Shown piece after piece: positions 1,304-53,965 of a stretch of 64,000 bases of DNA. The translations under genes were made by a program, and so were the position numbers. This stretch comes from Eledone cirrhosa (taxonomy: Eukaryota). Under the pieces are notes generated by a model. The model saw only the letters and a program-made list of their open reading frames with translations, made no database searches and was not told the DNA's origin. Each line of letters starts with the position of its first letter. Position 1 is the stretch's first letter. The DNA lies in contig OZ024740.1 of assembly GCA_964016885.1 (NCBI GenBank), positions 154,690,001-154,754,000 of the forward strand, given 5' to 3'.

Positions 1304-1362
1304 GAATGATGATTTTCTTCGAATTAAAAAGTTCTAGTCCTGTAGAAGCCATTTCTATATTG

Positions 1363-4389
<3,027 letters not shown>

Positions 4390-5757: not shown

Positions 5758-5795
<38 letters not shown>

Positions 5796-5864
5796 GACGT
5801 AAAATAAGAAAATATTTTTTTTTAAAAAAAATTTAAAAAAAATTTTTTTCTTACTTAAATTTTC

Positions 5865-5946
5865 ACTCCAACTAATTAGTTTCTGCAATGGGATAAAGAC
5901 AGTTACGTAATCCAACTGTCGAGAATTCATTGCGTCATCAGGAAGT
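5865..5946 (-). ncRNA. Type I hammerhead ribozyme motif (copy 1)
   Basis: Minus strand: ACUUC-CUGAUGA-C-GCAAUG..GACAGUU-loop-AACUGUC..CAUUGC-A-GAA-ACUAAUUAGU-U-GGAGU. Stem I ACUUC/GGAGU, intact core, extended stem II, palindromic stem III, GUU cleavage triplet. Confidence 0.8.
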
Positions 5947-6423
5947 CTATTCTCAGTTAAGTCTCCAGGCAATGCGCGGACACTGGCGGCTCATATAAAA
6001 ATAATAATAATTCGGTAGATCGAACAGCTTGCGAGGACTGAATTCTATGTACCGAAATTCTCACTGCTTCAAGTCAAATGGCCGATTCTAAAGAATCAAT
6101 CACGTGACACAGAGGCTAGTTAGAAGGAATGGGATGGTAAGATGACTGACGCCTACTAACACCCCAAAAATAATTTTTTTAGAAGTGGTTTTGACAAGTT
6201 TGCTCGACAAATCAGTGATTTGGAGATAAATATAGATAATTTAATATATCAACTAACATAAGCGCACAGATGCACGCCCATGCCAGCAAATACACAGGTT
6301 ATGTCATAGTACCTAGGTGGTTCAATGCAGGAGAATGCAGAACAATAATATAAAGGACGTAAAATAAGAAAATATTTTTTTTAAAAAAAATTTAAAAAAA
6401 ATTTTTTTCTTACTTAAATTTTC

Positions 6424-6505
6424 ACTCCAACTAATTAGTTTCTGCAATGGGATAAAGACAGTTACGTAATCCAACTGTCGAGAATTCATTGCGTCATCAG
6501 GAAGT
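6424..6505 (-). ncRNA. Type I hammerhead ribozyme motif (copy 2)
   Basis: Same sequence as 5865-5946, offset 559 nt. Confidence 0.8.
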
Positions 6506-6982
6506 CTATTCTCAGTTAAGTCTCCAGGCAATGCGCGGACACTGGCGGCTCATATAAAAATAATAATAATTCGGTAGATCGAACAGCTTGCGAGGACTGG
6601 ATTCTATGTACCGAAATTCTCACTGCTTCAAGTCAAATGGCCGATTCTAAAGAATCAATCACGTGACACAGAGGCTAGTTAGAAGGAATGGGATGGTAAG
6701 ATGACTGACGCCTACTAACACCCCAAAAATAATTTTTTTAGAAGTGGTTTTGACAAGTTTGCTCGACAAATCAGTGATTTGGAGATAAATATAGATAATT
6801 TAATATATCAACTAACATAAGCGCACAGATGCACGCCCATGCCAGCAAATACACAGGTTATGTCATAGTACCTAGGTGGTTCAATGCAGGAGAATGCAGA
6901 ACAATAATATAAAGGACGTAAAATAAGAAAATATTTTTTTTAAAAAAAATTTAAAAAAAATTTTTTTCTTACTTAAATTTTC

Positions 6983-7064
6983 ACTCCAACTAATTAGTTT
7001 CTGCAATGGGATAAAGACAGTTACGTAATCCAACTGTCGAGAATTCATTGCGTCATCAGGAAGT
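6983..7064 (-). ncRNA. Type I hammerhead ribozyme motif (copy 3)
   Basis: Same sequence as 5865-5946, offset 1118 nt. Confidence 0.8.
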
Positions 7065-7341
7065 CTATTCTCAGTTAAGTCTCCAGGCAATGCGCGGACA
7101 CTGGCGGCTCATATAAAAATAATAATAATTCGGTAGATCGAACAGCTTGCGAGGACTGGATTCTATGTACCGAAATTCTCACTGCTTCAAGTCAAATGGC
7201 CGATTCTAAAGAATCAATCACGTGACACAGAGGCTAGTTAGAAGGAATGGGATGGTAAGATGACTGACGCCTACTAACACCCCAAAAATAATTTTTTTAG
7301 AAGTGGTATATATATATATAAAGGTTTACACATATATATAC

Positions 7342-12496: not shown

Positions 12497-12569
12497 ATGG
12501 ATTGAAGACGAGACTTTTGGCATAGGACTTAGGAGATTACGCTCATACTTTGGCCATGTATTTTATGGG
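12497..12569 (+). CDS. ADAMTS-like exon
   Basis: ttttctatacag|A...GGG|gtaagt. Translates (K)WIEDETFGIGLRRLRSYFGHVFYG. Phase 2 in, phase 0 out, compatible with both neighbours. Confidence 0.8.
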
Positions 12570-13996
12570 GTAAGTTTTGATTATTAGATTTTGAGGATTA
12601 ACATTTTGATATCAATCCAACCAGAACTGGTACTGGTTCTATGAAACAAAACCACCAATTTTAAAGGGTTCCTAAATAACTCTTAACATCCTGTAATGAT
12701 TTTGCAGAAAATATTTTTTAATGGGTTTATTTAAATGCTTATAGTATTTGTATTAGTGAACAGATTATTGTGAAAATTTGCAATAAACTAAAGTAGACTT
12801 TAATTTTTAATGTGATGCAGTCATAGTGCTATTTTGCACTTTTCAAGAATGTTTTGTAATGTCGTTTCATGTTAAATTAAAATCTCCCAAGATAATCTCT
12901 TAATATATAATAGCCTTGTGTATTTGTCCGTTACACACTTGAGATGTCTGAGGAAGGAAGGGATGATAATGTCAACTGAGGAAAGAGAGGGTGATTATAT
13001 CAACTGATAAAGGAAGGGGCGATAACATTGACTTAGGAAGGAGGGGTGGCAGTGTCTAATATTCGCTACATATTATGTGTGCCTATATGTATAGCAAATT
13101 GGTTACACACATTGGCTGTTATGATTATGTGAGTGTTTGTGTGTATGTGTGTTTGTGTAAATTATATTTATATATAATATTTGTGTGAGTGTATAAGTGT
13201 TTGGGTGTGTTTATTTATAAAGATACATAAACAATAGAATAACAAACACACACACATCTACACATACGTATATATAAACAGACACACTTAGAAAAAATAA
13301 TAATTACAAACACACACATCTATGTGATGACTGAGAAAGCGGGGGTGAGAAACTATGGAAGTCCAGCATTCTAAGATTTGTCACAGCTGTGTGTTTGTAA
13401 GTTTGTATCACTTGTGTGAGTGAGCCAACCAACCAACCAACAAACAAACACATTTTTTTTATATGTATAGATATTACAATTAGGCGTCATTTTTGATGGC
13501 ACAGGGCCAGATTGCTTTATATAAAAGCCATATAGTGATTTATCTTAGTAATAAAATAATTAATGATTTTAGTAAATCTCTAAAAATGTTTCATTAATTA
13601 ATAGAAATATGGTCATGCAGAAGTAAATACACACCCACTCTTACTCACACAATATCAACATCATCATCATTTTACATCTGCTTTCCATGCTGGCATGGGT
13701 TGGATTGGTTGTCACATTTTGCTTCTTTGTAATTGAACAGGTTGGAAAACCATGTAATTTTTAGTATGGTTTCTACAGCTGGATACCTTTCCCAGCACCA
13801 GCCACTTGACAGAGTATACTGGGTGCTTTATCTAATTTCATCAGCACTATCACTTTATAGTTGGTAGTTGATGCATTTTATCATGGCATTAGTTCTAGTG
13901 AGATTGTTAAGTCCTCAACACGACTAATAGAGTCCTCTCAGCCCTACACAGTCTCAGTTCACACACACACATACAAACATATATATATATATATTT

Positions 13997-16900
13997 CGTC
14001 AACCCCTTTTCACGCTAACCTGCTCGCTCGCCCGGTGAAATGTAACGTACAAATGCTATTTCTTTATCCTCTCTCCATTTTCTCCCCAGTCCATTCATCT
14101 ATCTGTATCATGTCGTCCAGAATCCAATCTTTGCTTTTTCAATGCTATTCGATAATTCTGTCTGATTGTTCAAAACAATCTTCTTGTTTTTTTTTAAATT
14201 GCCATAATTCTTCCCTTATTACTGTTATATATGCTTGTTCAGTTATGCCCAAATTTCGAGGATTTTATTTAAACCTTATCGCTAACTACCCCCATTCTCG
14301 TTCATTTAATTATGGTAGAAATTCTCGTTCGTTCAATTATGGCAAAATTCTAGGATTTTATAAAATAACCTTCTCTACTCCCTCCTATTCTTCACTCCTC
14401 CCCCCCCCCACCCCCTATATCCTGCTGGTTCCATCTCAATCCCTTCCTCTCTCTCCCAGGCTAGGCTGCTCGCTCGCCCGGGGAAATTCGTACAAATGCT
14501 ATTTCTTTACTCTTCTCTCCATTTTTTCCCCGGTCCATTCATCTATCTTTATCATTTCGTCCAGAATCTAGTCTTTGCCTTTTCAATGCTATTCGATAAT
14601 TCTGTCTGATTGTTCACAACAATCTTCTTGTATTTATTAAATTCCCATAATTCTTCTCTTATTACTGTTATATATGCTTGTTAAGTTATGCCCAAATTTC
14701 GAGGATTTTATTTAAACCTTCTCGCTAACTACGTCATTCTCGTTCGTTTAATTATGGCCGAAATTCTCGTTCGTTTAATTATGGCAAAATTCTAGGATTT
14801 TATAAAATAACCTTCTCTGCTCCCTCCTATTCACTCCCACCCCCCTATATCCGGCTGGTTCTTTCTCAATCCCTTGCTCTCTTTCCAAATATAAAATAAA
14901 CCTGTTAAGGATACGAAATTCAGAGTTCATCAACCCCTTTTCAGGCTAAGCTGCTCGCTCGCCCGGTGAAATGTAACGTAAAAATGCTATTTCCTTATCT
15001 TCTCTCCATTTTTTCCCCGGTCCATTCATCTATCTGTATCATTTCGTTCAGAACCCAATCATTGCTTTTTCAATGCTATTCGATAATTCTGTATGATTGG
15101 TCAAAACAATCTTCTTGTATTTTTTAAATTCCCATAACTCTTCGCTTATTACTGTTATATATGCTTGTTCAGTTATGTCCAAATTTCGAAGATTTTATTT
15201 AAACCTTCTCGCTAACTACCCCATTCTCGTTCATTTAATTATGGCCGAAATTATCGTTCCTTTAATTATGGCAAAGTTCTAGGATTTTATAAAATAACCT
15301 TCTCTGCTCACTCCTATTCTTCGCCCCCCCCCCCCCCCCTATATCTTGCTGGTTCCCTCTCAATCTCTTCCTCTCTCCAATTATAAAAGAAACATGTAAT
15401 GAGTACGAAACTCAGAACTCGTCAACCCCTTTTCAGGCTAAGCTGCTCCCTCGCCCGGTGAAATGTAACGTACAAATGCAACGTACAAATGCTATTTCTT
15501 TACTCTTCTCTCCATTTTGTCCGCCGGTCCACTCATCTATCTGTATCATTTCGTCCAGAATCTAATCTTTGCCTTTTCAATGCTATTCGATAATTCTGCC
15601 TGATTGTTCAAAACAATCTTCTTGTTTTTTTCAAATTGCCATAATTCTTCTCTTATTACTGTTATATATATGCTTGTTCAGTTATGCCCAAATTTCGAGG
15701 GTTTTATTTAAACCTTCTCGCTAACTACCCCATTCTCGTTCGTTTAATTATGGCAGAAATTCTAAGATTTTATAAAATAACCTTCTCTGCTCCCTCCTAT
15801 TCTTCACCCCCTACACCCCACCCCCACCCCTATCCCCTGCTGGGTCCCTCTCAATCCCTTCCTCTCTCTCCAAATATAAAATAAACCTGTTACGATTACG
15901 AAATTCAGAATTCGTCAACCCCTTTTCAGGCTAGGCTGCTCGCTCGCCCGGTGAAATTCGTACAAATGCTATTTCTTTACTCTTCTGTCCATTTTTTTCC
16001 CGGTCCATTCATCTATCTGTATCATTTCGTCCAGAATCCAATCTTTGCTTTTTCAATGCTATTCGATAATTCTGTCTGATTGTTCAAAACAATCTTGTAT
16101 TTTTTAAATTCCCATAATTCTTCTCTTATTACTGTTATATATCTAAGGCGGGTAAAATTCCCGAGATCCATGGACGAGTTCTCTCCAGCTGTCTCCGTCC
16201 CTCATTATCGCTGCCATGTCTTGCGTCTCCAACAGACCAGTGTCTGTCCTTAGGGCATCAACATACGTTAACCTTGGTCTTCTTCTTCTAGTATGTCCAT
16301 GTAGGGGCTCCCAAAGGAGCACTGGGTGCAATGTCAACTCTGGATGTCGGTGAGCATGTCCAGCTAACCTCAGTCTCCTCTGTGTCACTTTTGAGCTGAC
16401 GTTTGGGATGCTCCCATACAGCTCTGAGTTTTTCATCCTCAGTGTATACTGATTAATGTTCAGAGCCATCCTCAACATTCTCGTGTAGCACCCATCCACC
16501 ATCTGGGTGAGTTTCTTGGTCAGTGTCCAAGTCTCAGACCCATACAGCAGCACAGACTCCACTACATCAATGAAGAGGCAGACTTTCAGGTCTCTACGAA
16601 GGTCCAACTTCCACACCGATCTCAAGCTGTGGCACGCCCCCCAGGCCTTGCTCTTCCTCTCAACCACATCATCTTCCGTATTCCCAATCTTTACTCCCAA
16701 ATACAGGAAGCCCTCAACCAATTCTAGCGGCTTCCCGCCGACATTAGTGATCCCCTCTGGCTTCTCAACATTCTCTACCAGATATTTTGTTTTAGTCTCA
16801 TTCATTCTCAGCCCCACACTCATCGACACAGTCTCAACCTCCCGCATCAAATCCTCTGCCTCCTTCACTGTATTTGTCACCAAAACTATGTCGTCGGCAA

Positions 16901-19900
16901 ATTCAGCATCCGATACCTTTTTCGCCCTAACTCTCCTGCTCTGAGCCGGTGCTACAGTAAATCCAGAGTCCTGGTGTTTCTCCAGTGCAAGGCGCATACA
17001 ATAGTCCACTACGATGATAAAAAGGTAGGGAGCCAATGTATCTCCCTGGAGCACTCCAGCCAGTATCTCAAAGAACTCTGTCATCCCATCAGGTGTAATG
17101 ACTTGGGCTTTGGTGTTGGTGTAGAGCAGTGATATCAGGTCCACTATCTTCTTGGGGATTCCATAAGCCTGTAAGATCTTCATCAGGCAGTAACGGTCCA
17201 CAGAATCAAAGGCCTTCCTAAAGTCAATGAAAACCATGACCGCGGGAAGGCATTTGCTCTAGCTCCCTCTAATATCCTCCTCAGCATCAGGATGTGACTG
17301 GTGGTTGATCTACCCTCTCTGAAGCCGTTCTGGTTGTCTCTGAGCTTCTTCTCCATCTCAAGCTGGATCCTGTTAAGAATCATCCTGTTGAGGGTCTTTG
17401 CCACAAGTGACGTCAGTGAGATCCCCCTGTAGTTGTTGGTGTTAGAGAGATCTCCCTTCTTTGTCACTGGGACGATGTTACTGATCCTCCACTGATTCGG
17501 GGCAACTCCCTTCTCCAGTGCCCCGTTACAGAACCCCAGGATGATATCATCAAAATCACACCTCTTCATCACCTCTGATGCCACTCCATCTTCTCCATGA
17601 GCCTTGCCCTCCTTGATCCTCTTCTTGGCTCTCTGAAGCTCCTCTCTGGTGAAGGGCTCTCTCAACATCCAGTTCCTCAAACAGCCGCCTGATCTCCCCA
17701 GTGCTCTGAGCTGTGGAGGGTGGCACTCCTAGTAGGGTCCTAAAATGGTCTAGCCATTTCCTCTTCCTATCCTCGGGCCCCGTTCCCTGGATCTGAGTCG
17801 AACACCTTCTCTTCCTCCCTGTGATCTCGTTGATGATCATCCAGCTCTCCTTACATCCAGATCTGTCAACCGCTCTCTCCACACTTCTGATCTTCTCTAT
17901 CAGTGCCTCCTCTCTGACTTCAGTGTAAGCGGTACAGAGTTCTTCCCTCATCACCTCCACAGTCTCCATCCTCTCCTCCGTAGGATCATCATAGAATTGG
18001 TCCTTGGCAGCCTTCGGGTGTTCTCTGGCTGCACACACTTTTGGGTTTGCAGAGCTGACGTGCTTCCCTTTGTTCTTTTTCCTCGGCACCAGGGTTTCAC
18101 TTGCTTCCGCCACTGCATTGGTGAAGTGCCCGTACCTCCTCGTCACACTCTCCTCGGTCCATCCAATCTCTCTCTCCTCTGACTCTCCACACAGAGCACT
18201 AAACCTGTTTCTCACTTCCACTGTGAACCTCTCCTGTAGATTATCATCTTCCTTGAAAGCTCCCCAGTCATAGATTGCTCTCCGGGGCCGAGCCTTGCTC
18301 TTTCTTAAGCTCACCCGGACCTCACTCATAACAAGCCGGTGGTCACTACCCAGTGTACTGAAATAACTGTATGGTTCTGTGTTCAGAACACTATTCTGCC
18401 ACTTTTTCCTCACGAGAATGAAATCAATCTGGGACTTGGACAGGTGCACATCTGAGATGTAGGTCCACATCTTCCCCAGATTCTTCCTAAACCTTAGGTT
18501 GGTCGCCATCAAGTTCGCCTCCAGCAGGGTGTCTCTCAGTAGTCTTCCATTTCGGTTGGTGTTGTTATGGAAGTACCAGAAAGGATCTTCACTGCCCTCC
18601 TTACTCAGATGTGCATTGAAGTCCCCCAAAACAAGCAGGATATTGTGTGCCTGAGTGGTGTTGACAGCTCTACACACCTCCTCATGGAACTCTTCCGCAC
18701 TCACATCTTGGGTTTCCATTGAAGGTCACCCTCAACACTCGCGGGGAGATAGGCATTATTTCCCTCACCAACAGATTGGTTCCTGCACTGAACACAAAAC
18801 CCACTCCTCCTACTGCAGCATTTGTCGTGTTCTTCGCTGCCGATGTGGTGATGAGCTGGCTCCTCTTCCCGACCATCACACTCCTCACGGGCTCATCGTG
18901 TAGGATCCTGTGTTCTTGGATCGCAAGTATCTGTATACCACTCTCCTCAAACAGATGTCCCAACTCCTCTCTCTTCTCCAGCGTCCGAATAGTCCTCACA
19001 TTCAAAGTGCCCATTTTGATGGCTCTTCTGCAGGACAAAACTGCATTCTTTATATTTGTCTCAGAGACAGCTGATCCATCATCCACTGGCCCTCTCTGTG
19101 GCTCTAAGCCAGCAGAGTCATAACGACCAGGCTGCTCCTTGACAGTGTAATTAGGGGCTCTAACCCTAGTGCTGTTAGATCGACTCTCCATATTTCTTTT
19201 CAAATGGCTGACAATACCTTACCGGCGCCACTCGAATAAGGTAGTTATTTAACCCATAAATGGAGCCCTAACTGGTACTACCACCCCGGGCCAGGGCAGA
19301 CCTGGGAGTCATGACAACTAAGGGGTAACTCCACATTCCCCACAACTCCTGAAATCCCGAACTTGAGCCTTGCCACTGGATGTAGTTAATGTCATACCCA
19401 GGACTGTTATATATATATGCTTGTTCAGTTATGTCCAAAATTCGAGGATTTTATTTAAACCTTCTCGCTAACTACCCCATTCTCATTCATTTAATTATGG
19501 CCGAAATTCTCGTTCGTCTAATTATGGCAAAATTCTAGGATTTTATAAAATAACCTTCTCTGCTGCTTCCTATTCTTCACCCCACCCCACCCCCCACCCC
19601 CACCCCCACCCACCCACCCCTATAACCTGCTTGTTCCCTCTCAATCCCTTCCTCTCTCTCCAAATATAAATTAACCTGTTCCGCGTACGAAATTCAGAAT
19701 TCGTCAACCCCTTTTCAGGCTAGGCTGCTCTCTCGCCCGGTGAAATGTAACGTACAAATGCTATTTCTTTACTCCTATCTCCATTTTTCCCCGGTCTATC
19801 TGTATCATTTCGTGCAGAATCTAATCTTTGCTTTTTCAATGCTATTCGATAATTCTGTCTGATTGTTCAAAACAATCTTCTTGTATTTTTTAAATTCCCA

Positions 19901-20485
19901 TAATTCTTCTCTTATTACTGTTATATATGCTTGTTCAGTTATGCCCAAATTTCGAGGGTTTTATTTAAACCTTGTCGCTAACTACCCCATTCTCGTTCGT
20001 TTAATTATGGCCGAAATTCTCGTTCGTTTAATTATGGCAAAATTCTAGGATTTTATAAAATAACCTTCTCTGCTCCCTCCTATTCTTCACCCCCTTATAT
20101 CTTGCTGGTTCCCTCTCAATCCCTTCCTCTCTCTCCAAATATAAAATAAACCTGTTACGAGTACGAAACTCAGAATTCGTCAACCCCTTTTCAAGCTAGG
20201 CTGCTCGCTCGCCCCGTGAAATTCGTACAAATGCTATTCGTACAAATGCTATTTGTTTACTCTTCTCTCCATTTTTCCCCGGTCCATTCATCTATCTGTA
20301 TCATTTCGTCCAGAATCCAATCTTTGCTTTTTCAATGCTATTCGATAATTCTGTCTGATTGTTCAAAACAATCTTCTTGTATTTTTTAAATTACCATAAT
20401 TCTTCTCTTGTTACTGTTATATATGCTTGTTCAGTTATGTCCAAAATTCGAGGTTTTATTTAAACCTTCTCGCTGACTACCCCAT
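13997..20485. repeat. Tandem satellite, ~470-490-bp unit, ~7 copies, interrupted by an RTE insertion
   Basis: cgtcaacccctttt caggcta(a/g)gctgctcgctcgcccggtgaaa recurs near 13997, 14457, 14929, 15420, 15913, 19702 and 20178. Confidence 0.9.
16143..19402 (-). mobile_element. Near full-length RTE-type LINE of a second family (APE + RT, 2-3 frameshifts) with 12-bp TSD
   Basis: MGTLNVRT/IQEHR, LGDFNAH, IDFILV, SDHRLV, YRGISL, QNGFR, FIDFRKAFDSV, GVLQGDTLAP, FADD, LYGSETW. TSD actgttatatat at 16131-16142 and 19403-19414. Confidence 0.92.
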
Positions 20486-21770
20486 ATCCCACCCACTACC
20501 ATTATTATGTGGACCAATCATAAGTCAGCGGCCTATGCTATCACTTAAGTTTAGACCTGTTTGCCTTTCGATATGATGGATGGACTACGGAATTCTGGAG
20601 TGTTTGAAAAGAAAAAAAATCTGGACACTCAGTGACAATGCCAAAGATAAAGACAAATTCACCTCATGTTGCCGGACGAGAAAGCAAGGACTGCTCCTCT
20701 TTATTTCGGCCGCGGATGGCTAACATAACCCCATCCCTCCTGCGCGTCACCGTTCCCACCCTCCAAACGCAATCCAAAACTTCAGAGTTGGTACCATGAA
20801 TGTAGGTACCTTAAAAGGTCGCTCTAATGAGGTTGTAGAAATGCTTGAACGTAAGGAGGTCGATGTTTGCTGGATTCAAGAGACCAGGTGGAGGGGTGGG
20901 TCTGCTAGATTCATTGTGAGTAAAGAACGATGCTATAAGCTTTTCTGAGTGGGAAATGACAATGGGCTGGGTGGAGTAGGAATCATGGTAGCAGAAAAGT
21001 GGGCAGATAAGATAATAAAAATAAGACTTGTCCTCAATAGAACTACTGTAACAACAATATCTGCATATGCACCCCCAATCCGGACTGCCTGGCTGGTGTG
21101 TTCACCTATAGATCAGGGGAACACACCAGCCATGTAGATTATATCCTTACCAGAATACGTGACAGAGTGTCTGTTGTAAACACTAAATCCCTCCCCCATG
21201 CAGAATACACCTCTCAACATACTCATAATTAGCGACCTCATAGTCAGGACGAGACATACTCGACAACAGAAGAGGACTATCCTCAGGAGAAAAATATGGA
21301 AGCTAAAGGACCCCACAGCCAGTAATAAATTTAAAAGCATATTACTTGATGCTTTTGATAGTAAGGAAGAGCAATTAGTCGTACAATATAGAGGAACAGA
21401 GAGAATTCCTGAAAGCTAACCTGCTGAAGGCGACAGATGAAATCTGTGGCTGGAGCAGACCTACAGGCAGGAGAGAGTAACTTGTTTGTGGAACAGTAAG
21501 GTGGAGTCAATCAAGGCCAAAAAGCAGGCTTGGAAAACATGGCGAGATGGGGGAAGTAGAGAAGACTATCAATTGGCCAGGAGGGAAGCTAGGAGAGAAG
21601 TGTACTTCGCAAGAAGGGAAGCAGAGGAAAGAAAGTTCAAGCATGTTCTACAACGCGGGGACCAAAAACGTGAGGTGTTCAGGATTGCTTGGCAATGTGT
21701 CAAGGAAAACCATGATATTGTCGGAGAAGTGTGTCCTTAATGATGATGGTGTACTTGCCATCACTGACGC
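20486..21770 (+). mobile_element. RTE LINE 5' part (5' UTR + degenerate APE), truncated by the inverted-repeat element
   Basis: VGTMNVGTLKG, IQETRW, SAYAP, IWKLKDP, homologous to the 1503-4389 copy. Breaks at 21770. Confidence 0.85.
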
Positions 21771-21878
21771 TGAGTGTCCAGCTATTCTGTATGTAAACAC
21801 ACAGACAAACCGGTTTTTAGAGTCATACTGGTTTTTGAGGAAACACCTTTCCTCTATTCTCCAGAAAGCCAGACAAGG

Positions 21879-21923
21879 AATATTGGACTAGTTTCGATGT
21901 TGTTACATCTCATCAGCAATATT
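21879..21923 (-). ncRNA. Hammerhead ribozyme, inverted copy of 27734-27778
   Basis: Exact reverse complement within the left arm of the 798-bp inverted repeat. Confidence 0.88.
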
Positions 21924-22108
21924 TACCTATCTTCCGGCCTTTCTAGAGAATCGTAAAAGCACATATCGTTATATGCTTTTTCTATGAAAATTAGTAGTGG
22001 GCAGACTAATTTGCATAGAGCGTGAGTACGTACCGGTTCAACGGAGACGATAAAAACAAATAACGAAATGATATATATATATATATATATATAATTTTAA
22101 TATAGATG

Positions 22109-22159
22109 AGATTCTACAGGACTAGAACTGTTTCATTCTTTAGAAATCATCAGGAATCT
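22109..22159 (-). ncRNA. Hammerhead ribozyme, inverted copy of 27498-27548
   Basis: Exact reverse complement within the left arm of the inverted repeat. Confidence 0.75.
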
Positions 22160-22869
22160 GGGTATCAAAAAATAAATATGGTATTTATAGGTCTCTACAA
22201 GTGGTAGGAGAGGGTGGGGAGTGGGATGGGTGTAGGTCATTGGTTGATAGAAAAGGGAATTCATTAAAACCTAATTCTACAAAGCTATAGTTTATTTTTA
22301 TTAATTTTATTAATTTTTGTTTTTAGAGTAACAAAGGCAGACAGAATTGTATAAACAGGTTCCGGATGGTATACCATTCCTTGTCATTAAGTTTCTCTTA
22401 AGCTAACAGATGTCTATAAGATCAGTGGCGGGTCAGTCATGGTAGATAGAATTAAAGGAAAGGGAGATTCTTTAAAAGCTAAATTCATTGAGGTTCTACT
22501 AAGTGACAAAGGTTTAGAGAATTCTGTAGACAGATTCAAAATACTGAGTGCATATCTTACAATTATCTACTCCAGAAAGCGCGCTCTTACAACGGAGGAC
22601 ACAAGGGCTGCGACCTTTGTATTTCAGAGAGCTACGAAATTTTATTCGCCAAGGGCCCGCTACTGAACAAACTCTCTGAACACTGCCCGAACTGCATGCA
22701 ACTTTCAAACACTTTAAGCCAGTGTTAAAGCCCGATGGCTAAAAACGACCTCCCCCTATTGGCCCCTATACCTCCTTCCCACCCTACCCCCACCCCTCCT
22801 CAACCTGAAATACGGCCACTATGGTTATGTGAGTACCTCTTTCCTATCTACATTTTCTGCCTGTAGAGG

Positions 22870-23117
22870 TGTTTTTATGTGCCTGCGTATATGCGTATAT
22901 TTATTGAGTACTTATTTATTTGTATGTGTATATATTTGTGTGTATGTGTGTATATGTATGTGTATGTATATATATATATGTATGTGTTTTATGTGTGTAT
23001 ATTTATGTATGTATATGTATGTATATATGTATGTGTATCTGTATGCATGTATGTATATGTGTATATGTGTATATATGTGTATGTATGTGTATGTGTATGT
23101 ATGTATATATGTGTATG

Positions 23118-23160
<43 letters not shown>

Positions 23161-23210
23161 ATGTGTGTATGTGTGTGTGTGTGTGTATATATATACGAGT
23201 GTGTGTGCAG

Positions 23211-23294
<84 letters not shown>

Positions 23295-25757
23295 GGAAGT
23301 AGAGAAGACTATCAAGTGGCCAGGAGGGAGGCTAGGAGACAAGTGTACTTCGCAAGAAGGGAAGCAGAGGAAAGAAAGTTCAAGCATGTTCTACAACGTG
23401 AGGACCAAAAACGTGAGGTGTTCAGGATTGCCAGGCAATGTGTCAAGGAAAACCGTGATATTGTCGGGGAGAAGTGTGTACTTAACGATGATGGCATACT
23501 TGCCATCACCGACGCTGATAAGAAGGTAGCTTGGAAGTGTCACTACGAAAGGCTTCTAAATGAGGAGAACAAATGGGAGAAAGACAGTCTCCCCCAGATC
23601 GATCCAATAGAGGGACCAGCAGTGTTAGTTGAAGGTAGTATAATAAGTAAGGCAATCAAAGATATGAAGACGGGTAAGGCGGCTGGGCCTTCGGAAATAG
23701 TTGCTGAGATGCTGAAGGCATCTGGTTCGGTGGGACACACCATGGTCACCCGGATAGTTAACCAAGTCGTACAGAATGGGGTTGTTCCGAAGGAATGGCG
23801 TAGCAGCATCATCGTTAACTGCTATAAGGGAAAAGGAGATGCCCTAGATAGGAGTAACTATAGAGGCATTAAATTAATCGACCAGGTCATGAAGGTCACG
23901 GAAAAAGTAATAGCGCAACTAATCAGAGAGAGAATTGATCTAGATGAAATGCAGTTCGGGTTTGTGTCAGGCAAAAGTACCACAGACGCTCTTTTCATTG
24001 TACGACAACTACAGGAGAAGTACCTAGCTAAAAGTAAACCCCTATACTTAGCTTTTGTCGACTTGGAGAAAGCCTTCGACAGAGTCCCCCGTTCCATTAT
24101 CTGGTGGTCTCTTAGAAAACTAGGTGTTGACGAATGGCTTGTGAGAGCTATACAAGCCATGTATAAAGAAACAGTCAGTAAGGTTAGAATTAACAACGAA
24201 TATAGTGAAGAGTTTAGCGTAAAAGTTGGTGTCCATCAGGGCTCTGTACTTAGCCCCCTACTATTTATTATTGCCCTTCAGGCTATAACAGAGGAGTTCA
24301 AGACCGGCTGCCCATGGGAACTCCTATACGCAGATGATCTAACGCTCATAGCTGAATCAATGACCGAACTAGAGAAGAAATTCCAAACGTGGAAGCACGG
24401 CCTAGAATCAAAAGGCCTTAAAATTAACCTGGCTAAGACTAAAGTTCTAGTTTGTAGGAAAGAAAATAAGGCGGCGGTCCCATCGGGGAAATGGCCATGC
24501 TCAGTGTGTAGGAAAGGCGTAGGTAGAAACTCCATTTTATGTCCCAAATGCAAAGTATGGGTGCATAAAAGATGTAGTGGGATCACAGGTAAGCTAACTA
24601 AGAACATAGATTTTACATGTGGCCGGTGCTCTGGTGCAATAAGTAGCAGCAAGTGCCCACAAAATACTAGCTCCTTCAACTGCGCAGAGGGTTCTATAGA
24701 AATAGTGGACAGCTTCCGTTATCTGGGTGACAAAATCAGCAGTGGGGGAGGGTGCTCTGAAAGTACAGTAGCTAGAGTCAGAACTGGATGGAAAAAGTTC
24801 AGAGAGCTTATACCACTATTAGCCGCTAGAGGGTTCTCCCTAAAAATGAAAGGCAGGTTATACGATGCCTGCATACGAACAGCAATGCTGCATGGCAGTG
24901 AGACCTGGGCATTGTGTGCAGAGGATATACGCAGACTAGAGAGGAACGAAGCTTGCATGCTCCGCTGGATGTGCAATAGTAATATACGTGAACGGCAAAG
25001 CATAAACGAACTAAGAAAAAAATTAGAAATAAGAGGGATCAGATGTTGTTTACTCGAGAGAAGGCTACGTCGACAGCTGTATAACAAAGTGCAGGGCAAT
25101 AAAGATAGACGGTAGCCACGGAGTAGGCAGACCCAGAAAAACATGGGACGAGCTGATAAATTCCGACCTCACACGCTTACACCTCTCCAAGACAATGTCA
25201 CTGGACCGAGACCTTTGGCGGTACTCAGTAATAGAGAAGACCCGCCTTACCTAAATACAAAGTAAAAACCTACTACAGTCAGTAGGCACCTCTATCAAAA
25301 CACACCCCCGTCCCACCACCTCCACCCCACCCACACCGCCCCTTTCAATGTAAAGTTATGTTGGTCCCACAACATCCAGGCCGAAACAAATGAGATCGTG
25401 TAGGTGTCACGACAAAAAACACACAGTCCACGCTGTAAATGTGGCCGTGTAGGCAACACGGTAAAAACCTCCCAGCCCCACACTGTAAATGTGGTTGGTG
25501 TTAGGAAGGGCATCCAGCTGTAGAAAACCCGCCAGACAGTCCACGCTGTAATGTGGCCGTGTAGGCAACACGGTAAAAACCTCCCAGCCCCACACTGTAA
25601 ATGTGGTTGGTGTTAGGAAGGGCATCCAACTGTAGAAAACCCGCCAGACAGTCCTATGCGAGCAAGACAACCACTCTTGCCTCAAGTGGGAAAACCCCCG
25701 TCCAAACCCATGCAAGCGTGGAACATGGACGCTAAACCTGATGATGATGATGATATA

Positions 25758-25803
<46 letters not shown>

Positions 25804-26001
25804 CGTGAGAGAGAGTGTGTGTATATATATTTTTGTGTGTGTGTATGTGTGTATGCGTGTATATATATGTATATATGTGTGTATATATGCGTATATATGT
25901 TTGTATATATGTGTATGTTTATGTATATGTCTGTGTATGTATGTGTATATATGTATATATATAGATATATATATAGAGAGATATTTATATATATGCATGC
26001 A

Positions 26002-26034
<33 letters not shown>

Positions 26035-26280
26035 GTATATGTGTGTGTGTGTATATATGTGTATATGTGTGTGTGTGTATATATGTGTGTGTATATGTAT
26101 GTATATATGTGTATGTATATATATATATATATATATGTATATGTATATATGTATATATATTTGTATATGTATGTATGTATGTATGTATGTGTGTATGTAT
26201 GTGTGTGTGTGTGTATATGTATATATGTGTATATATGTTGCGTGTGTGTGCGTGTGTATATATATGTGTATATGTATATT

Positions 26281-26335
<55 letters not shown>

Positions 26336-26392
26336 ATATATGTGTATGTATTTGTGTATATATGTATGTATGTGTGTGTATGTGTGTATATA

Positions 26393-26430
<38 letters not shown>

Positions 26431-26471
26431 TATATGTATGAATGGTGTATCTCTCTCTCTCTATATATATA

Positions 26472-26523
<52 letters not shown>

Positions 26524-26621
26524 GTGCTTTTTCCTTATATATGTGTATATGTGTGTGTGTGTATATATATATGTATGTGTGTGTGTGTGTGTGTGTATGT
26601 ATATGTATATATTTGTTTATG

Positions 26622-26652
<31 letters not shown>

Positions 26653-26720
26653 TTGTGTGTATGTGTGTGTATATGTATGTATATGTATATATATATATAT
26701 GTGTTTATATATATGTATTT

Positions 26721-26755
<35 letters not shown>

Positions 26756-26886
26756 GTATGTGTATATATATGTATATATATACACATGTATATTTGTGTG
26801 TATGTATGTTTGTGTGTGAGTGTATATATATGTGTATATATGTGTGTGTGTTTGTGTGTGTATATATATATATGTATGTGTGTATG

Positions 26887-26919
<33 letters not shown>

Positions 26920-27030
26920 ATGTATATATATATAAATATATTTATATATGTGTGTGTGTTTTTATGTGTGTATATGTGTATGTGTATGTGTGTTTATTGT
27001 TGCGCGCGAGTGTGTGAGTGAGTGTGTTTT
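22870..27030. repeat. Compound (TA)/(TG) low-complexity tract (22870-23291 and 25754-27030) split by the RTE insertion
   Basis: Directly visible. It is the source of the many spurious YI/CV ORFs. Confidence 0.9.
23292..25753 (+). mobile_element. 5'-truncated young RTE LINE (open RT with PHD-like finger), inserted in a TA microsatellite
   Basis: [40 protein letters not shown] short deletion near 25070 removes WYGHV. The 3' UTR has a ~112-bp internal duplication and a (GAT)n tail. Confidence 0.93.
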
Positions 27031-27497
27031 TTTGTGAATGTGTCTGTTGATTTTTGGCATATAGTTGATTAGTTTAAGAGAAGTTCGAAGATAATTGTAA
27101 GATATGCACTCAGTATTTTGAATCTGTCTACAGAATTCTCTAAACCTTTGTCACTTAGTAGAACCTCAATGAATTTAGCTTTTAAAGAATCTCCCTTTCC
27201 TTTAATTCTATCTACCATGACTGACCCCCCACTGATCTTATAGACATCTGTTAGCTTAAGAGAAACTTAATGACAAGGAATGGTATGCCATCCGGAACCT
27301 GTTTATACAATTCTGTCTGCCTGTGTTACTCTAAAAACAAAAATTAATAAAATTAATAAAAATAAACTATAGCTTTGTAGAATTAGGTTTTAATGAATTC
27401 CCTTTTCTATTAACCAATGACCTACACCCATCCCACTCCCCACCCTCTCCTACCACTTGTAGAGACCTATAAATACCATATTTATTTTTTGATACCC

Positions 27498-27548
27498 AGA
27501 TTCCTGATGATTTCTAAAGAATGAAACAGTTCTAGTCCTGTAGAATCT
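27498..27548 (+). ncRNA. Type I hammerhead ribozyme motif
   Basis: AGAUUC-CUGAUGA-U-UUC-uaaa-GAA-U-GAA-ACAG-uucuaguc-CUGU-A-GAAUCU. 6-bp stem I, weak stem II, 4-bp stem III, GUA cleavage site. Confidence 0.75.
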
Positions 27549-27733
27549 CATCTATATTAAAATTATATATATATATATATATATATCATTTCGTTATTTG
27601 TTTTTATCGTCTCCGTTGAACCGGTACGTACTCACGCTCTATGCAAATTAGTCTGCCCACTACTAATTTTCATAGAAAAAGCATATAACGATATGTGCTT
27701 TTACGATTCTCTAGAAAGGCCGGAAGATAGGTA

Positions 27734-27778
27734 AATATTGCTGATGAGATGTAACAACATCGAAACTAGTCCAATATT
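27734..27778 (+). ncRNA. Canonical minimal type I hammerhead ribozyme
   Basis: AAUAUUG-CUGAUGA-GAUGU-aaca-ACAUC-GAA-ACUAGU-C-CAAUAUU. 7-bp stem I, perfect core, 5-bp stem II, palindromic stem III, GUC cleavage site. Confidence 0.9.
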
Positions 27779-28760
27779 CCTTGTCTGGCTTTCTGGAGAA
27801 TAGAGGAAAGGTGTTTCCTCAAAAACCAGTATGACTCTAAAAACCGGTTTGTCTGTGTGTTTACATACAGAATAGCTGGACACTCACAGTAAAGTGACCA
27901 GTGAAAAACTCGGTACATCTACATATGTACACGTGTGTGTATTCATATGCATACTAGTATTTCAGTATACATATGTGGATGTACATTTTTAACTTAATTG
28001 TTTAAGCGTCAGTCATACAAAAGTGAGTTACAAACGAAACGAAATTTAATTTCGTTTCGTTATTTGTTTTTATATATATCATCATTTCCATTTAACATTA
28101 ATTTTTCCACGCTTCCAGGGGTTAGATGGGCAATCCATGCCGGGAGACAAGTCTGGCCATTGTTGGCTTTGTGTCACACCTTGCTCTGGTGGGGACTGTA
28201 AATTTAGCTGGGTATTTTACAGCTGGATGCCCATTCTAACACCAACCATGTTTACAATATGGAACTGGATGGCTCCATTAGGAGGAGGGACAAGCCAGCT
28301 GGAAGTGCCGAGCCTATCTTACAATGGAACCATGTTTTCAGAGCCCAACCCATCACACAGTCAAACCATAGTTTTGGAGCCCAGTACCGGGTGGCATTGA
28401 TATGAGGAGCCTAACCTATCTCACAGCGCAGCCTCAGTTTTGGGGCCCGGTACTGTGTGGCACCACTATGAGGAGGGGTGGCCTGTCGGCTGCACAAAAC
28501 CCATCACACAACGTTGCCATAATTTTGGGGCTTGGTACTCGATGACACTGCTATGAAGAAGGACATGTGCAGAACCACAGTTTGGGAGCCTGGTATTGGA
28601 TGGTACCACTATGCAAAGGGACCTGTGATATCACTATGAGGAAGGACAGGCCATTTGGCAGTGCCAAACCCTTCTCACAGTGATACCCCAGTTTCAAAGT
28701 CCGGCACTCTGCATGCCACAGACACTTAATATGAAACTGGACTCTGCAGCCTAGGAGTAG

Positions 28761-29585
28761 ATGGCACCACTATGGGAAGTGACAGGCCAGTTGGCTGTGC
28801 CGAACCCTTCACACAGCAGACCCTCAATTCGGGTATTGGATGTGCATGACACCACTATGGGAAGTGACAGGCCAGTTGGCTGTGCCGAACCCTTCACACA
28901 GCAGACCCTCAATTCGGGTATTGGATGTGCATGACACCACTATGGGAAGTGACAGGCCAGTTGGCTGTGCCGAACCCTTCACACAGCAGACCCTCAATTC
29001 GGGTATTGGATGTGCATGGCACCACTATGGGAAGTGACAGGCCAGTTGGCTGTGCCGAACCCTTCACACAGCAGACCCTCAATTCGGGTATTGGATGTGC
29101 ATGGCACCACTATGGGAAGTGACAGGCCAGTTGGCTGTGCCAAAACCCTCTCACAGCAGACCCTCAATTCGGGTATTGGATGTGCATGACACCACTATGG
29201 GAAGTGACAGGCCAGTTGGCTGTGCCAAAACCCTCTCACAGCAGACCCTCAATTCGGGTATTGGATGTGCGTGACACCACTATGGGAAGTGACAGGCCAG
29301 TTGGCTGTGCCAAAACCCTCTCACAGCAGACCCTCAATTCGGGTATTGGATGTGCATGACACCACTATGGGAAGTGACAGGCCAGTTGGCTGTGCCAAAA
29401 CCCTCTCACAGCAGACCCTCAATTCGGGTATTGGATGTGCGTGACACCACTATGGGAAGTGACAGGCCAGTTGGCTGTGCCAAAACCCTCTCACAGCAGA
29501 CCCTCAATTCGGGTATTGGATGTGCATGACACCACTATGGGAAGTGACAGGCCAGTTGGCTGTGCCAAAACCCTCTCACAGCAGC
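28761..29585. repeat. 85-bp minisatellite, ~9.7 near-identical copies, with degenerate relatives at ~28270-28760 and ~29590-29950
   Basis: Unit atg(g/a)caccactatgggaagtgacaggccagttggctgtgcc...gggtattggatgtgc at 85-nt spacing from 28761. Confidence 0.95.
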
Positions 29586-30099: not shown

Positions 30100-33000
30100 T
30101 CCACCATGAGGGTCCCCATATTTCGCTACTATTTTCAGCACACTTATGATCTTTAGCTGATGTAGATGCAATTTCAAGCACATATATGGATCACCATAAG
30201 GTTCCCCCTGTTAAGATGATGTAGCTGCTATTTCCAGCACATCTGTCGACCACCACGAGGTTACTCCTAGTTAGTTCCTATTTCAGGCACACCTATGGGC
30301 CACCCTGAGGTTCCCCCGTCCAACTGATGCAGCTGCAACCTCTAGCAAAACTATGGCCCACTATGCGGTTCCCCATTTACCTGATCTAGCACCTATTTCT
30401 AGCACACCTACGGTCCACAGTGAGGTTCTCCTATTTAGCTGCTATTTCTACCACAGCTATGAACCACCATAAGGTTCCCATTATTTTGATGATGTAGATG
30501 CTATTTCTAGCACACCTATAGACCACCATAACGGTTCCTTCTATTTAGCTGTTATTTCTAACACATCTATATACCAACATTTATTTAGCTTCTATTTCTA
30601 GCACACCTATGGACTACCATTAGGTTCCCCCTGTTTAGCTGATGTAGCTGTTATTTCTAGCAAACTTATAAACCACCATAAGTTTCTCCTATTTGGCTGC
30701 TACTTCTAGCACATCTATGGACAACAATCAGGCTCCCTTTTAACTGATGCAGCTACTATTTCTACCACAGCTATGAACCACCATAAGGTTTCCACTATTT
30801 TGCTGATGCAGCTGCTATTTCTAGCACACCTATAGACCACCATGGTGTTTCCCTTATTTAGTTGCTATTTCTACCACAGCTATGAACCACCATAAGGTTT
30901 CCACTATTTTGCTGATGCAGCTGCTATTTCTAGCACACCTATAGACCACCATAACAGTTCCTTCTATTTAGCTGTTATTTCTAACACATCTATATACCAA
31001 CATAAGGTCTCCCTATTTAGCTTCTATTTCTAGCACACCTATGAACCACAAAGAGGTTCCTCAAATTATGCTACCTTTTCTAGCACACCTATTGATTACA
31101 AGGAGGTTTTCCCCTAGTTAGAGGTTATTTCTAGCACACCTATGTACCTGTTCAGCTGATGAAGCTGTTATATCTAACACACTTATGGACCACCACGAGG
31201 TTCACCCCTATTTAGCTGCTATTTCTACTACATCTAGGGATTACCATGAACTTCTTCCTATTTAACTGCTATTTCTAGCACACCTATTTACCACCATGAG
31301 GTGCCCCCTATTTAGCTGCTATTTCCTGCATATCTATGGGACATCATGACGTTCCCCCTATTTACCTGCTATTTCCTGCACTCCTATTGACCACCATGAA
31401 GTTCCTCATATTTAGCTGCTGTTTCTAGTACACCTATGTACCACCATAAGGTGCTCTCTGTTTAGCTATGCAGCTGTTATTTCTAGCACACCTCTGAACC
31501 ACCATGATGTTTCCCTTATTTAGCTGCTATTTCTAGCAGACCTCTGGACCACCATGATGTTTCCTTTATTTAGCTGCTATTTTTAGCACACTTATGGACC
31601 ACCATGAGGTTCCTCTCTATTTAGCTGCTATTTCTAACACACATATTGAGCCTTATAAGGTTCCTCCTGTTCAGTTGATGAAGATGCTATTTCTAGCACA
31701 CTTATGGACAACCATGAGTTTCACCACTATTCAGTTGCTATTTCTAGCACACCAATTGACCACATTGAAGTTGCTCCTATTTAGCTGCTATTTCTAGCAC
31801 AATTATGGACCACCTTGAGGTTAGCCCTATTAAGCTGATAATTCTAGCACAAGTATGGACCACTATGAGGTTCCTCCTATTTAGCTGCTAAGCCTAGCAC
31901 ACACATGGACCTCTATAAGATACACCCTGTTTAGCTAATATAGATGCTATTTCTCGCACACCTATTGACCACCATGAGGTTCTCTTTTAAGAAGTTCCCT
32001 AGTTTAGCTGCTATTTCTAGCACACTTATGGACCTCCATGTGGTTCACTCTCTTTAGCTGCGTTTCCTAGCACACACATGGATCTCCATGTGGTTCCCCC
32101 TATTTAGCAGCTATTTCTAGCGCACATGAACCACAATGATGTTCCCCTTATTTAGCTGCTGTTTCTAACACACCTATGGGCCACCAGTGAGGTTCCTCCT
32201 GTTTAGCTGCTATTTCTAGCTCACCTATGGACCAACATGATCTTCCCCCCTATTTAGCTGCTATTTCTAGCATACCTATGAACCACCATGTGGTTTCTCC
32301 TGTTTAGCTCCGTTTTCTAGCACACATATGAACCGCCATTTGCTTCTCCCTATTTAGCATCTATTTCTAGCATACCTTGGGACCTCTAGCTGCTATTTCT
32401 AGCATATCTATTGATCACCATGAACTTTCTCCTATTTAGCTGCTATTTCTAGCATACTTTTAGACCACCATGAAATTCTGCCTATTTAGCTGCTGTTTTA
32501 AGCACACCTTTGGTCTACAATGATGTGCTCCTGTTTAGCTGATATAGCTACTATTTCGAGCACACCTATGGACCACGATGAAGTTGACCTTATTTAGCTG
32601 CTATTTCTACTACATCTATGGATTACCATGAAGTTCTTCCTATTTAACTTCTATTTCTAACACACCTATTAACCACTATGAGGTTCCGCCTATTTAGCTG
32701 CTATTTCCTGCACTCCTGTGTACCACCATGAGGTTCTCCTATTTAACTGCTGTTTCTAGTACACCTATGTACCACCATAAGGTTCTCCCTGATTAGCTAT
32801 GTAGCTGCTATTTCTAGCACACCTATAGACCACCATAATGTTTCCCTTATTTAGCTGCTAATTCTAGCACACCTATGTACCACCATGAGTTTCCCTATAT
32901 GTGACTGCTTATTCTAGCACATTTATGGACCACAATGAGGTCCCCCTATTTAGCTTCTATTTCTAGCATTCCTGATCCACCTTGAGGTTCCTCCTGTTTA

Positions 33001-33390
33001 GTTGATGTAGCTGCTATTTCTTGTACGCCTATAGACCACCATGAGGTTGCCTCACTGATGTAGCTGCTATTTTTAGCACACCTTTGGACCATCATGTGGT
33101 TCCCCCTGCCTAGCTATGTGGCTGCTTTTTCTAGCACACCTACTTACCACCATGAGGTGCACCCTATTTATCTGCTATTTCTAGCACAGTTACAGACCAC
33201 CCAGATTTTCCCCCCTGTTTAGCTGATATAGCTTCTATTTCTAGCACACCTATGGACCACGATGGGGTTCCCTCTATTTATCTGATATTTCTAGCACATC
33301 TATGTACCACCATACGGTTCTGCCTATTTAGCTGCTATTTATAGCACACCTATGGACCACCATCAAGTTCCCTCTGTGTAGCTATATCAC
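30100..33390. repeat. Degenerate ~50/59-bp minisatellite (~60 copies)
   Basis: Recurring tttagctgctatttctagcacacctatggaccaccatgaggttccccta, some units with an extra gatgtagct. Confidence 0.92.
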
Positions 33391-34680: not shown

Positions 34681-34758
34681 GCTGACCTGATATATAGAAA
34701 TGTAGACCTGACTGATGCAATTTTTTCAATTAAATTGATGGGAATTATCTTAATATCA
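34681..34758 (+). CDS. ADAMTS-like exon
   Basis: ttttctcag|GCT...TCA|gtgagt. Translates ADLIYRNVDLTDAIFSIKLMGIILIS, the typical M12B 'xxLY...I.I.L..I.I' segment. Phase 0/0. Confidence 0.85.
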
Positions 34759-53947: not shown

Positions 53948-53965
53948 TATACTAATATATATATA

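What the first reader, a model, noticed from the sequence alone, without database searches (positions are those of the whole stretch)
21771..27886. 798-bp ~99% identical inverted repeat with two hammerheads per arm, inside the 22-kb intron of the metalloprotease gene
Seen: arms 21771-22568 and 27089-27886. Each carries two different HHRs separated by a (TA)n run, one of them canonical (27734-27778, GUC). The left arm cuts an RTE copy at 21770. Established: Penelope-like elements often have an inverted 5' copy of their HHR-bearing pLTR. Inference: the + strand pre-mRNA would hold sense HHRs able to cut the intron co-transcriptionally. The antisense arm is transcribed first, so it could pair into ~800 bp of dsRNA that masks the ribozymes and offers an ADAR substrate. 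This matters in cephalopods, which edit RNA heavily.
Basis: partly seen in the sequence, partly recalled or inferred. Interest (0 to 1): 0.75.

Follow-up and report, generated by a model that had tools for sequence, protein, structure and literature searches.

The report
Penelope twin-arm insertion with captured retrozyme
This intronic inverted repeat is the back-to-back footprint that an abundant Penelope-type jumping gene commonly leaves in this genome, and its left arm was likely extended later by DNA repair over a second, younger ribozyme repeat, so it is probably ordinary mobile-element debris and not a gene switch.

Summary
The 798-bp inverted repeat is real (4 mismatches), and both hammerhead cores are intact. 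Each arm is a composite: about 475 nt from the 3' end of a Hydra-clade Penelope-like element (family A, about 1,500-1,800 candidate places), a (TA)n run, then 300 nt of an unrelated 466-nt tandem hammerhead repeat (family B, retrozyme-like). The spacer is the rest of the same A copy, with a very young RTE nested in it. Back-to-back arms are common in family A. Of 28 other pairs, 27 carry a 69-nt tail on exactly one arm, and none shares its flank. This pair has no tail and shares 300 nt of B. Its four differences all lie near the hinge; the distal 475 nt are identical. Likely history: a normal twin-arm insertion, then B landing in the right (TA)n, then repair copying TA+B into the left arm and deleting the RTE end (TGA microhomology). 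A pre-mRNA hairpin is plausible but generic: all ten hammerheads found in 144 kb have an antisense partner. Both ribozymes are predicted to be weak as monomers. The scan reported twin-arm architecture before at other loci of this genome.

The parts
21771..22070 (-). Left arm, distal part: inverted copy of nt 1-300 of repeat B, with antisense HHR-B at 21879-21923; joined to the RTE through TGA microhomology
   Evidence: Identical to 27587-27886; junction
22071..22568 (-). Left arm, hinge part: (TA)n plus the inverted 3' end of PLE family A, with antisense HHR-A at 22109-22159; lacks the 69-nt tail
22569..22870 (+). 5'-truncated PLE A body: C-terminal end of the GIY-YIG domain and start of the 3' UTR, with a private 13-nt deletion; head-to-head hinge at 22568/22569 with 1 shared base
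   Evidence: full ORF in L100
22871..26989 (+). Microsatellite-rich 3' UTR of PLE A, interrupted by the RTE
   Evidence: In the closest relative the GIY-to-arm distance is 2071 nt against 4520 here; the difference matches the RTE length. The microsatellite region is shared among copies.
23293..25750 (+). Very young 5'-truncated RTE-type LINE nested in the UTR of A
Evidence: RVT_1 E=9e-33; 39 other copies 100% identical over 1001 nt; 2-3 mismatches over 2.46 kb to the nearest copies.
26990..27563 (+). Unique 3' end (pLTR) of PLE A; the right arm begins at 27089; sense HHR-A at 27498-27548; no-tail end
27564..27586 (.). (TA)n target run, the same length in both arms
27587..28073 (+). One monomer (466 nt) plus overlap of the retrozyme-like repeat B, ending at the family's tail-type end; sense HHR-B at 27734-27778; the arm match stops at 27886
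20771..21773 (+). Older RTE copy (85-91% identical to the young copies) whose 3' part is missing at the left junction
12497..12569 (+). Predicted host exon 5' of the 22.1-kb intron
   Evidence: AG/GT ends; weak tblastn match (E 2.6, 3 homologues) in collinear position
34681..34758 (+). Predicted host exon 3' of the intron
   Evidence: AG/GT ends; weak profile match (E 0.38) in collinear position
45263..45368 (+). Host exon with the HExxH zinc motif (M12B, ADAM/ADAMTS-like)
   Evidence: 44 homologues at E<=0.01; those with a species name are molluscs; profile E 5e-11

Best explanation
The repeat is nested mobile-element debris: a Hydra-clade Penelope-like element with its common back-to-back arm, whose left arm was likely extended later by repair synthesis over a younger retrozyme-like repeat. 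Shown: the arm is the A 3' end + (TA)n + B nt 1-300; the spacer is the same A copy plus a nested RTE; head-to-head arms with one tail are the rule in the sampled pairs; this pair breaks the rule. Inferred steps: (1) A was copied from both ends of a break in (TA)n, which made the hinge at 22568/22569, a no-tail right end and, by the family rule, a tailed left end. (2) One B monomer landed in the right (TA)n. (3) A break near the left end was repaired by invading the right arm, copying through (TA)n into B up to 27886, and rejoining at TGA in the RTE; this removed the tail and the RTE 3' part. (4) A young RTE entered the spacer; its order relative to steps 2 and 3 is not resolved. In the pre-mRNA the arms would pair and could be edited by ADAR like other intronic inverted repeats, most likely as a by-product with no host role.
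For: Arm nt 1-498 matches 38 other scored places at 95-98%, from 1821 candidates. Arm nt 499-798 matches a separate set that includes 466-bp tandem arrays. A and B share only low-complexity sequence. Of 28 other adjacent head-to-head pairs, 27 have one tailed arm, 1 has two, and none has zero; none shares a contiguous flank. Divergence in the A part is family-typical, 4/424 against 72/7222 in 25 other pairs, so the hinge part looks as old as the insertion. The distal 475 nt and the TA length are identical; P=0.027 (one-sided) that all 4 differences fall in the first 323 nt. B carries no private allele in 487 nt against 121 pieces. The A-B junction, the 13-nt deletion and the 27308 variant occur only at this locus, so no donor copy was found.
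Against: The clustering test is weak: P=0.15 if the A/B border is used, about 0.05 two-sided, and the model was formed after seeing the data. Three substitutions shared by both arms are rare or absent elsewhere. This fits a late duplication as well, although 8 of 25 ordinary pairs also share private variants. The deleted left end cannot be inspected, and no empty or intermediate allele was seen. The sampled loci were the best matches to window queries, not a random draw. DNA and RNA templates for step 3 cannot be told apart.
Confidence: 0.6

Rival explanations
1. One retrotransposition of a chimeric read-through RNA (A 3' part + TA + B), primed at the ends of B from both sides of a break; a later deletion trimmed the left end.
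For: It explains two no-tail A ends, the shared private substitutions and the blunt hinge; the right end is the normal tail-type end of B. An earlier scan note (e1-8806526, not checked here) reports long RNA retrocopies in this genome.
Against: No donor: three exact patterns hit only this locus. It predicts equal age along the arms, yet B shows 0 changes where about 3 are expected. It needs a second event for the deletion. None of the four arm differences is an A-to-G change.
Confidence: 0.15
2. A single replication template switch, after B had arrived, copied the whole 798 nt in inverted orientation and deleted the DNA between 21773 and 22569.
For: A deletion plus a nearby inverted templated segment, with 3-nt and 1-nt microhomologies; shared private substitutions.
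Against: The hinge has exactly the geometry that family A makes by itself. Arm divergence equals that of ordinary pairs, and the differences cluster on the hinge side.
Confidence: 0.12
3. The antisense arm is kept by selection because it shields the host pre-mRNA from ribozyme cleavage; the extension over B restored the shield after an unshielded HHR-B arrived. This is compatible with the best history.
For: The extension covers HHR-B and ends 108 nt beyond it. All 5 sense hammerheads in 144 kb are preceded by an antisense copy. Retrozymes are reported as under-represented in Xenopus introns (bioRxiv 10.64898/2026.07.22.740005, passages). HHR-B here has GUC, whereas 93 of 113 family pieces have T at the third base.
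Against: One case only. The pairing arises from the insertion mechanism without selection. Both ribozymes are predicted to be poor monomers, and such short helix III motifs are described as needing a dimer (PMC4209133). 42-44% of Xenopus retrozymes do lie in introns. All parts are very young.
Confidence: 0.08
4. The extended left arm is an assembly artefact.
For: The distal 475 nt are identical between the arms, and the window holds 200 N elsewhere.
Against: Each arm carries two derived alleles of its own. The hinge is family-typical, and the left junction has microhomology.
Confidence: 0.05

Closest known systems
Hydra clade of Penelope-like elements (Craig et al. 2021, PMC8557442; section 11, passages and supplement look-ups read)
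   Same: C-terminal GIY-YIG, DKT, CxCX5C linker, CxxC and CxH near the C-terminus, (TA)n target, canonical hammerhead, inverted 5'-truncated copy, tail at one end only.
   Different: RWR instead of RWK; a 69-nt tail against the 30-40 nt described; a microsatellite-filled UTR. The hammerhead differs from that of the listed Hydra-1_Obim; a search of that supplement for a piece of this hammerhead gave 3 hits, of which the 2 shown were unrelated. Here both arms lack the tail and share flank DNA.
Metazoan non-LTR retrozymes (Cervera and de la Pena 2020, PMC7229834, passages read; bioRxiv 10.64898/2026.07.22.740005, first fifth and passages read)
   Same: Non-coding, low-GC (36%) tandem unit with one type I hammerhead per unit; monomers to multimers, dispersed.
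   Different: 466 nt, above the roughly 300-nt typical size; arrays are head-to-head with two fixed ends; circular RNA was not tested; the mobilising PLE was not identified (B is not derived from A).
Minimal and canonical type I hammerheads of PLEs (Cervera and de la Pena 2014, PMC4209133; first quarter read)
   Same: Short palindromic helix III (HHR-B); that paper already notes pairs of motifs close together on opposite strands.
   Different: Two different motifs lie in tandem here only because two elements are nested.
Aborted synthesis-dependent repair finished by microhomology joining (one-sided invasion); recalled, only a search listing seen
   Same: A templated tract that runs past the homology, a microhomology exit and a flanking deletion.
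   Different: Inferred from one sequence; the template is the element's own inverted arm.
Intronic inverted repeats as ADAR substrates; cephalopod repeat editing (PMC9068888, passages read)
   Same: A long near-perfect duplex in a pre-mRNA; in squid, ubiquitously edited sites are mainly in introns and 3' UTRs and overlap repeats.
   Different: No editing data here; the arms are 9.2 kb and 6.8 kb from the nearest predicted exons.

Membership tests
Hydra-clade PLE (family A) | Single ORF with RT and C-terminal GIY-YIG | tested here: met
   758-aa stop-to-stop ORF in L100 with YxDD at 392 and YIG at 647; Pfam GIY-YIG is only sub-threshold (E 0.019) and RVT_1 was not hit
Hydra-clade PLE (family A) | DKT in place of DKG | tested here: met
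   DKT at 161, no DKG
Hydra-clade PLE (family A) | CxCX5C linker | tested here: met
   position 611
Hydra-clade PLE (family A) | RWK motif | tested here: inconclusive
   RWR at 83, a conservative change
Hydra-clade PLE (family A) | No CCHH motif within GIY-YIG; CxxC and CxH further on | tested here: met
   No CxxC between the GIY-like and YIG strands (two cysteines lie 8 residues apart there); CxxC at 711 and 736, CxH at 739
Hydra-clade PLE (family A) | Insertion into (TA)n, hammerhead in the terminal repeat | tested here: met
Hydra-clade PLE (family A) | RT phylogeny groups with Hydra references | not tested
   No reference sequences were available to the script machine
Canonical PLE twin-arm insertion | Head-to-head inverted 5' copy next to the truncated body | tested here: met
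   hinge at 22568/22569
Canonical PLE twin-arm insertion | Tail on one arm only; arms stop at the target (TA)n | tested here: not met
   Neither arm is tailed, and 300 nt are shared past (TA)n; 27 of 28 other pairs follow the rule
Non-LTR retrozyme (family B) | Short tandem unit with a type I hammerhead in each unit | tested here: met
   466-nt period, arrays of 20 or more units; core kept and one compensatory stem II pair, A-U against U-A
Non-LTR retrozyme (family B) | Non-coding, GC under 45% | tested here: met
   longest ATG ORF 19 aa sense and 50 aa antisense; GC 36%
Non-LTR retrozyme (family B) | Self-cleavage and circular RNA in vivo | not testable with these tools
   needs cleavage assays and northern blots or divergent RT-PCR
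Functional intronic ribozyme or editing element | Conservation at the orthologous site; measured cleavage or editing | not testable with these tools
   No related genomes are held for this window; all parts are young repeats

The most novel reading that the evidence does not exclude
The head-to-head geometry of Penelope and retrozyme insertions is a built-in antisense shield. In a host transcript of either direction the antisense arm is made first and blocks the sense hammerhead, which is what lets these elements colonise introns. This locus would record the shield being rebuilt: an unshielded retrozyme landed in the tail, and an allele whose repair tract covered the new ribozyme was favoured.
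Probability: 0.1. Interest if true: 0.7.

Novelty: new member of a known kind. Interest (0 to 1): 0.25.

Why it matters
As a locus it is minor: a readable case of nested young elements and of likely repair between inverted arms. Its use is as a test object. It gives a natural one-arm against two-arm construct for asking whether intronic PLE hammerheads cut host pre-mRNA, and it points to a genome-wide count that would test the shield idea. The family survey also gives a clean rule (one tail per pair, 27 of 28) that constrains how Penelope-like elements prime reverse transcription.

Tried and rejected
Public runs: no RNA holder was listed. Contigs of six runs laid on the left arm and on the right end were swamped by repeat copies; no listed record bridged a junction and the tables were cut, so there is no verdict on the assembly or on an empty site. 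The miRNA matches of Rfam are microsatellite artefacts, all far under their gathering scores. My first reading, that the three shared substitutions prove a late duplication of the whole arm, was dropped after 8 of 25 ordinary pairs showed the same. The idea that the nested RTE predates the arms was dropped when it proved nearly identical to many copies. The third hit for the 27387 variant (C1639) is an ordinary 95% copy, not a donor. The flank similarity in L123 is a 58-nt, about 85% patch at different offsets, not a shared extension. B is not a derivative of the A pLTR. A homologue search with the single exon found nothing; the alignment search worked. The protein atlas gave no answer. Paper searches (listings only, apart from the papers named) showed no paper on antisense masking of PLE hammerheads or on twin priming in PLEs; most subscription papers are not in that library.

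Full report
Observation. Both hammerheads have complete cores. A descriptor scan of the window plus 40 kb on each side gave 10 hits, and 0 in each of 20 block shuffles. Rfam sees only HHR-B, below its gathering score (38.9 against 52 bits). The host gene is an M12B metalloprotease on the + strand. The HExxH exon has 44 homologues, molluscan where a species is named. A profile of them finds exons in collinear order; the two that flank the 22,111-bp intron (12570-34680) score weakly but have proper splice sites and matching phase.

What the arm is. Searching the genome splits the arm in two. Nucleotides 1-498 match 38 other places among the 40 candidates scored out of 1821, at 95-98%, stopping at or just before the (TA)n. 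Upstream, these copies continue through a microsatellite-rich region to the sequence at 22569-22870, which is the C-terminal end of a GIY-YIG domain. A full copy (L100) encodes 758 aa with DKT, a CxCX5C linker, no CCHH motif and C-terminal CxxC/CxH. These are the Hydra-clade features in PMC8557442 section 11, except RWR for RWK; no tree was built. The spacer is thus the body of the same element, lengthened by a nested RTE: 39 other copies are 100% identical to it over 1001 nt. Nucleotides 499-798 belong to a different family, a 466-nt non-coding unit that forms tandem and head-to-head arrays, with one hammerhead per unit and a compensatory pair in stem II. It fits the description of animal non-LTR retrozymes (PMC7229834, passages). 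The right side holds a whole monomer up to 28073.

The family rule and the exception. I fetched 60 ten-kb regions around family A hits; they were the best matches to window queries, not a random sample. Of these 60 plus the window, 57 held an element end, giving 28 adjacent head-to-head pairs besides the window's. In 27 pairs exactly one arm carries a 69-nt tail, in one both do (one of them partly), and in none do the arms share a contiguous flank beyond (TA)n. Repeat B shows the same two fixed ends, near nt 413 and nt 490. Inverted copies and one-sided tails are described for PLEs (PMC8557442), and two RT start sites that bound the tail were shown in vitro for a lizard element (PMC11167929, second quarter read). 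The window's pair has no tail on either arm and shares 300 nt of B, so it is not an untouched insertion.

History. In the A part the arms differ at 4 of 424 scored sites, as ordinary pairs do (72 of 7222 in 25 pairs; L106, short hits and hits under 90% were left out). The distal 475 nt, the TA length included, are identical, and B has no private allele in 487 nt against 121 pieces, some counted twice through overlapping fetches. The chance that four evenly spread differences all fall in the first 323 nt is 0.027 one-sided, or 0.15 if the A/B border is used: suggestive, not proof. Exact patterns for the A-B junction, the 13-nt deletion and one shared variant hit only this locus, so no donor is assembled. 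The left end joins an old RTE through TGA, and the RTE 3' part is missing. The simplest account is a normal twin-arm insertion, a later B monomer in the right (TA)n, and a repair tract that invaded the right arm, ran into B and rejoined by microhomology (0.6; the repair pathway is recalled knowledge). Against it, three substitutions shared by both arms are rare or absent elsewhere; however, 8 of 25 ordinary pairs also share private variants. Rivals are a chimeric retrotransposition with a missing donor (0.15), a single template switch (0.12) and misassembly (0.05).

Function. If the intron is transcribed, the arms would pair (predicted duplex -1430 kcal/mol against -169 and -188 for the separate folds) and would be a likely ADAR substrate; in squid, intronic repeats are commonly edited (PMC9068888, passages). 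This is not special here. All 10 hammerhead hits in 144 kb form five sense/antisense pairs at four loci, always with the antisense copy first, and 27 of the 28 other family A pairs have the core on both arms. The ribozymes are predicted to be weak alone. HHR-B forms stems I and II but not helix III, whose palindrome suits a dimer; the active helices of HHR-A have probabilities of 0.07 or less. PMC4209133 describes such short helix III motifs as poor monomers, and the lizard element's ribozyme needed protein. On the other side, a coral retrozyme monomer cleaved fast, nearest-neighbour models miss tertiary contacts, and the extension does cover HHR-B. A selected shield therefore stays open at about 0.1.

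Verdict. A real but ordinary product of two known kinds of element, with one unusual secondary rearrangement. Earlier scan notes describe the same twin-arm footprint at other loci of this genome; they are not independent evidence, and my family counts were made here. Supplements of the bioRxiv preprint could not be seen and may list related retrozymes. Interest 0.25.

Noticed in passing
window 27587-28073 (repeat B) in coded runs X4, X5, X6: Repeat B is nearly identical in three other organism labels (for example 0 differences in 84 nt in X4 and X6), while in X4 the A tail differs at 16 of 244 sites. X5 holds it as a 497-nt contig that closes on itself, as a tandem unit or a circle would. This suggests strong constraint or horizontal spread.
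   Followed up: partly
window 8054 (-) and 8160 (+); also 83330/85893 and 91791/91938 in window numbering, beyond its end: Three more head-to-head hammerhead pairs from other families lie in or near the same gene.
   Followed up: partly
window 52061-53965 (-): A second Penelope-like ORF of 634 aa (RVT_1 E 3e-7) with a GIY-YIG-like end, followed by a microsatellite-rich region like that of family A.
   Followed up: no
window 5788-7307: About 2.7 copies of a 559-bp tandem unit, 99.8% identical, each with a CUGAUGA motif on the - strand but no complete hammerhead by my descriptor.
   Followed up: no
L100:5314-7590: An uninterrupted 758-aa family A ORF; the 69-nt tail is the sequence that follows the pLTR into the start of this frame.
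   Followed up: partly
window 45263-45368 and 48584 onward: The zinc motif would splice to HExxH-SLN-xxH-D, with N where metzincins usually have G (recalled consensus).
   Followed up: no
window 13995-16142 and 19403-20485: A tandem repeat of about 490 bp is split by another LINE on the - strand (16143-19200; RVT_1).
   Followed up: no
window 28761-29584 and 30100-33390: An 85-bp minisatellite and a degenerate array of about 50 bp lie in the same intron.
   Followed up: no
window 1307-1390: A degenerate relative of the family A end (85% identical) whose hammerhead core is broken.
   Followed up: partly
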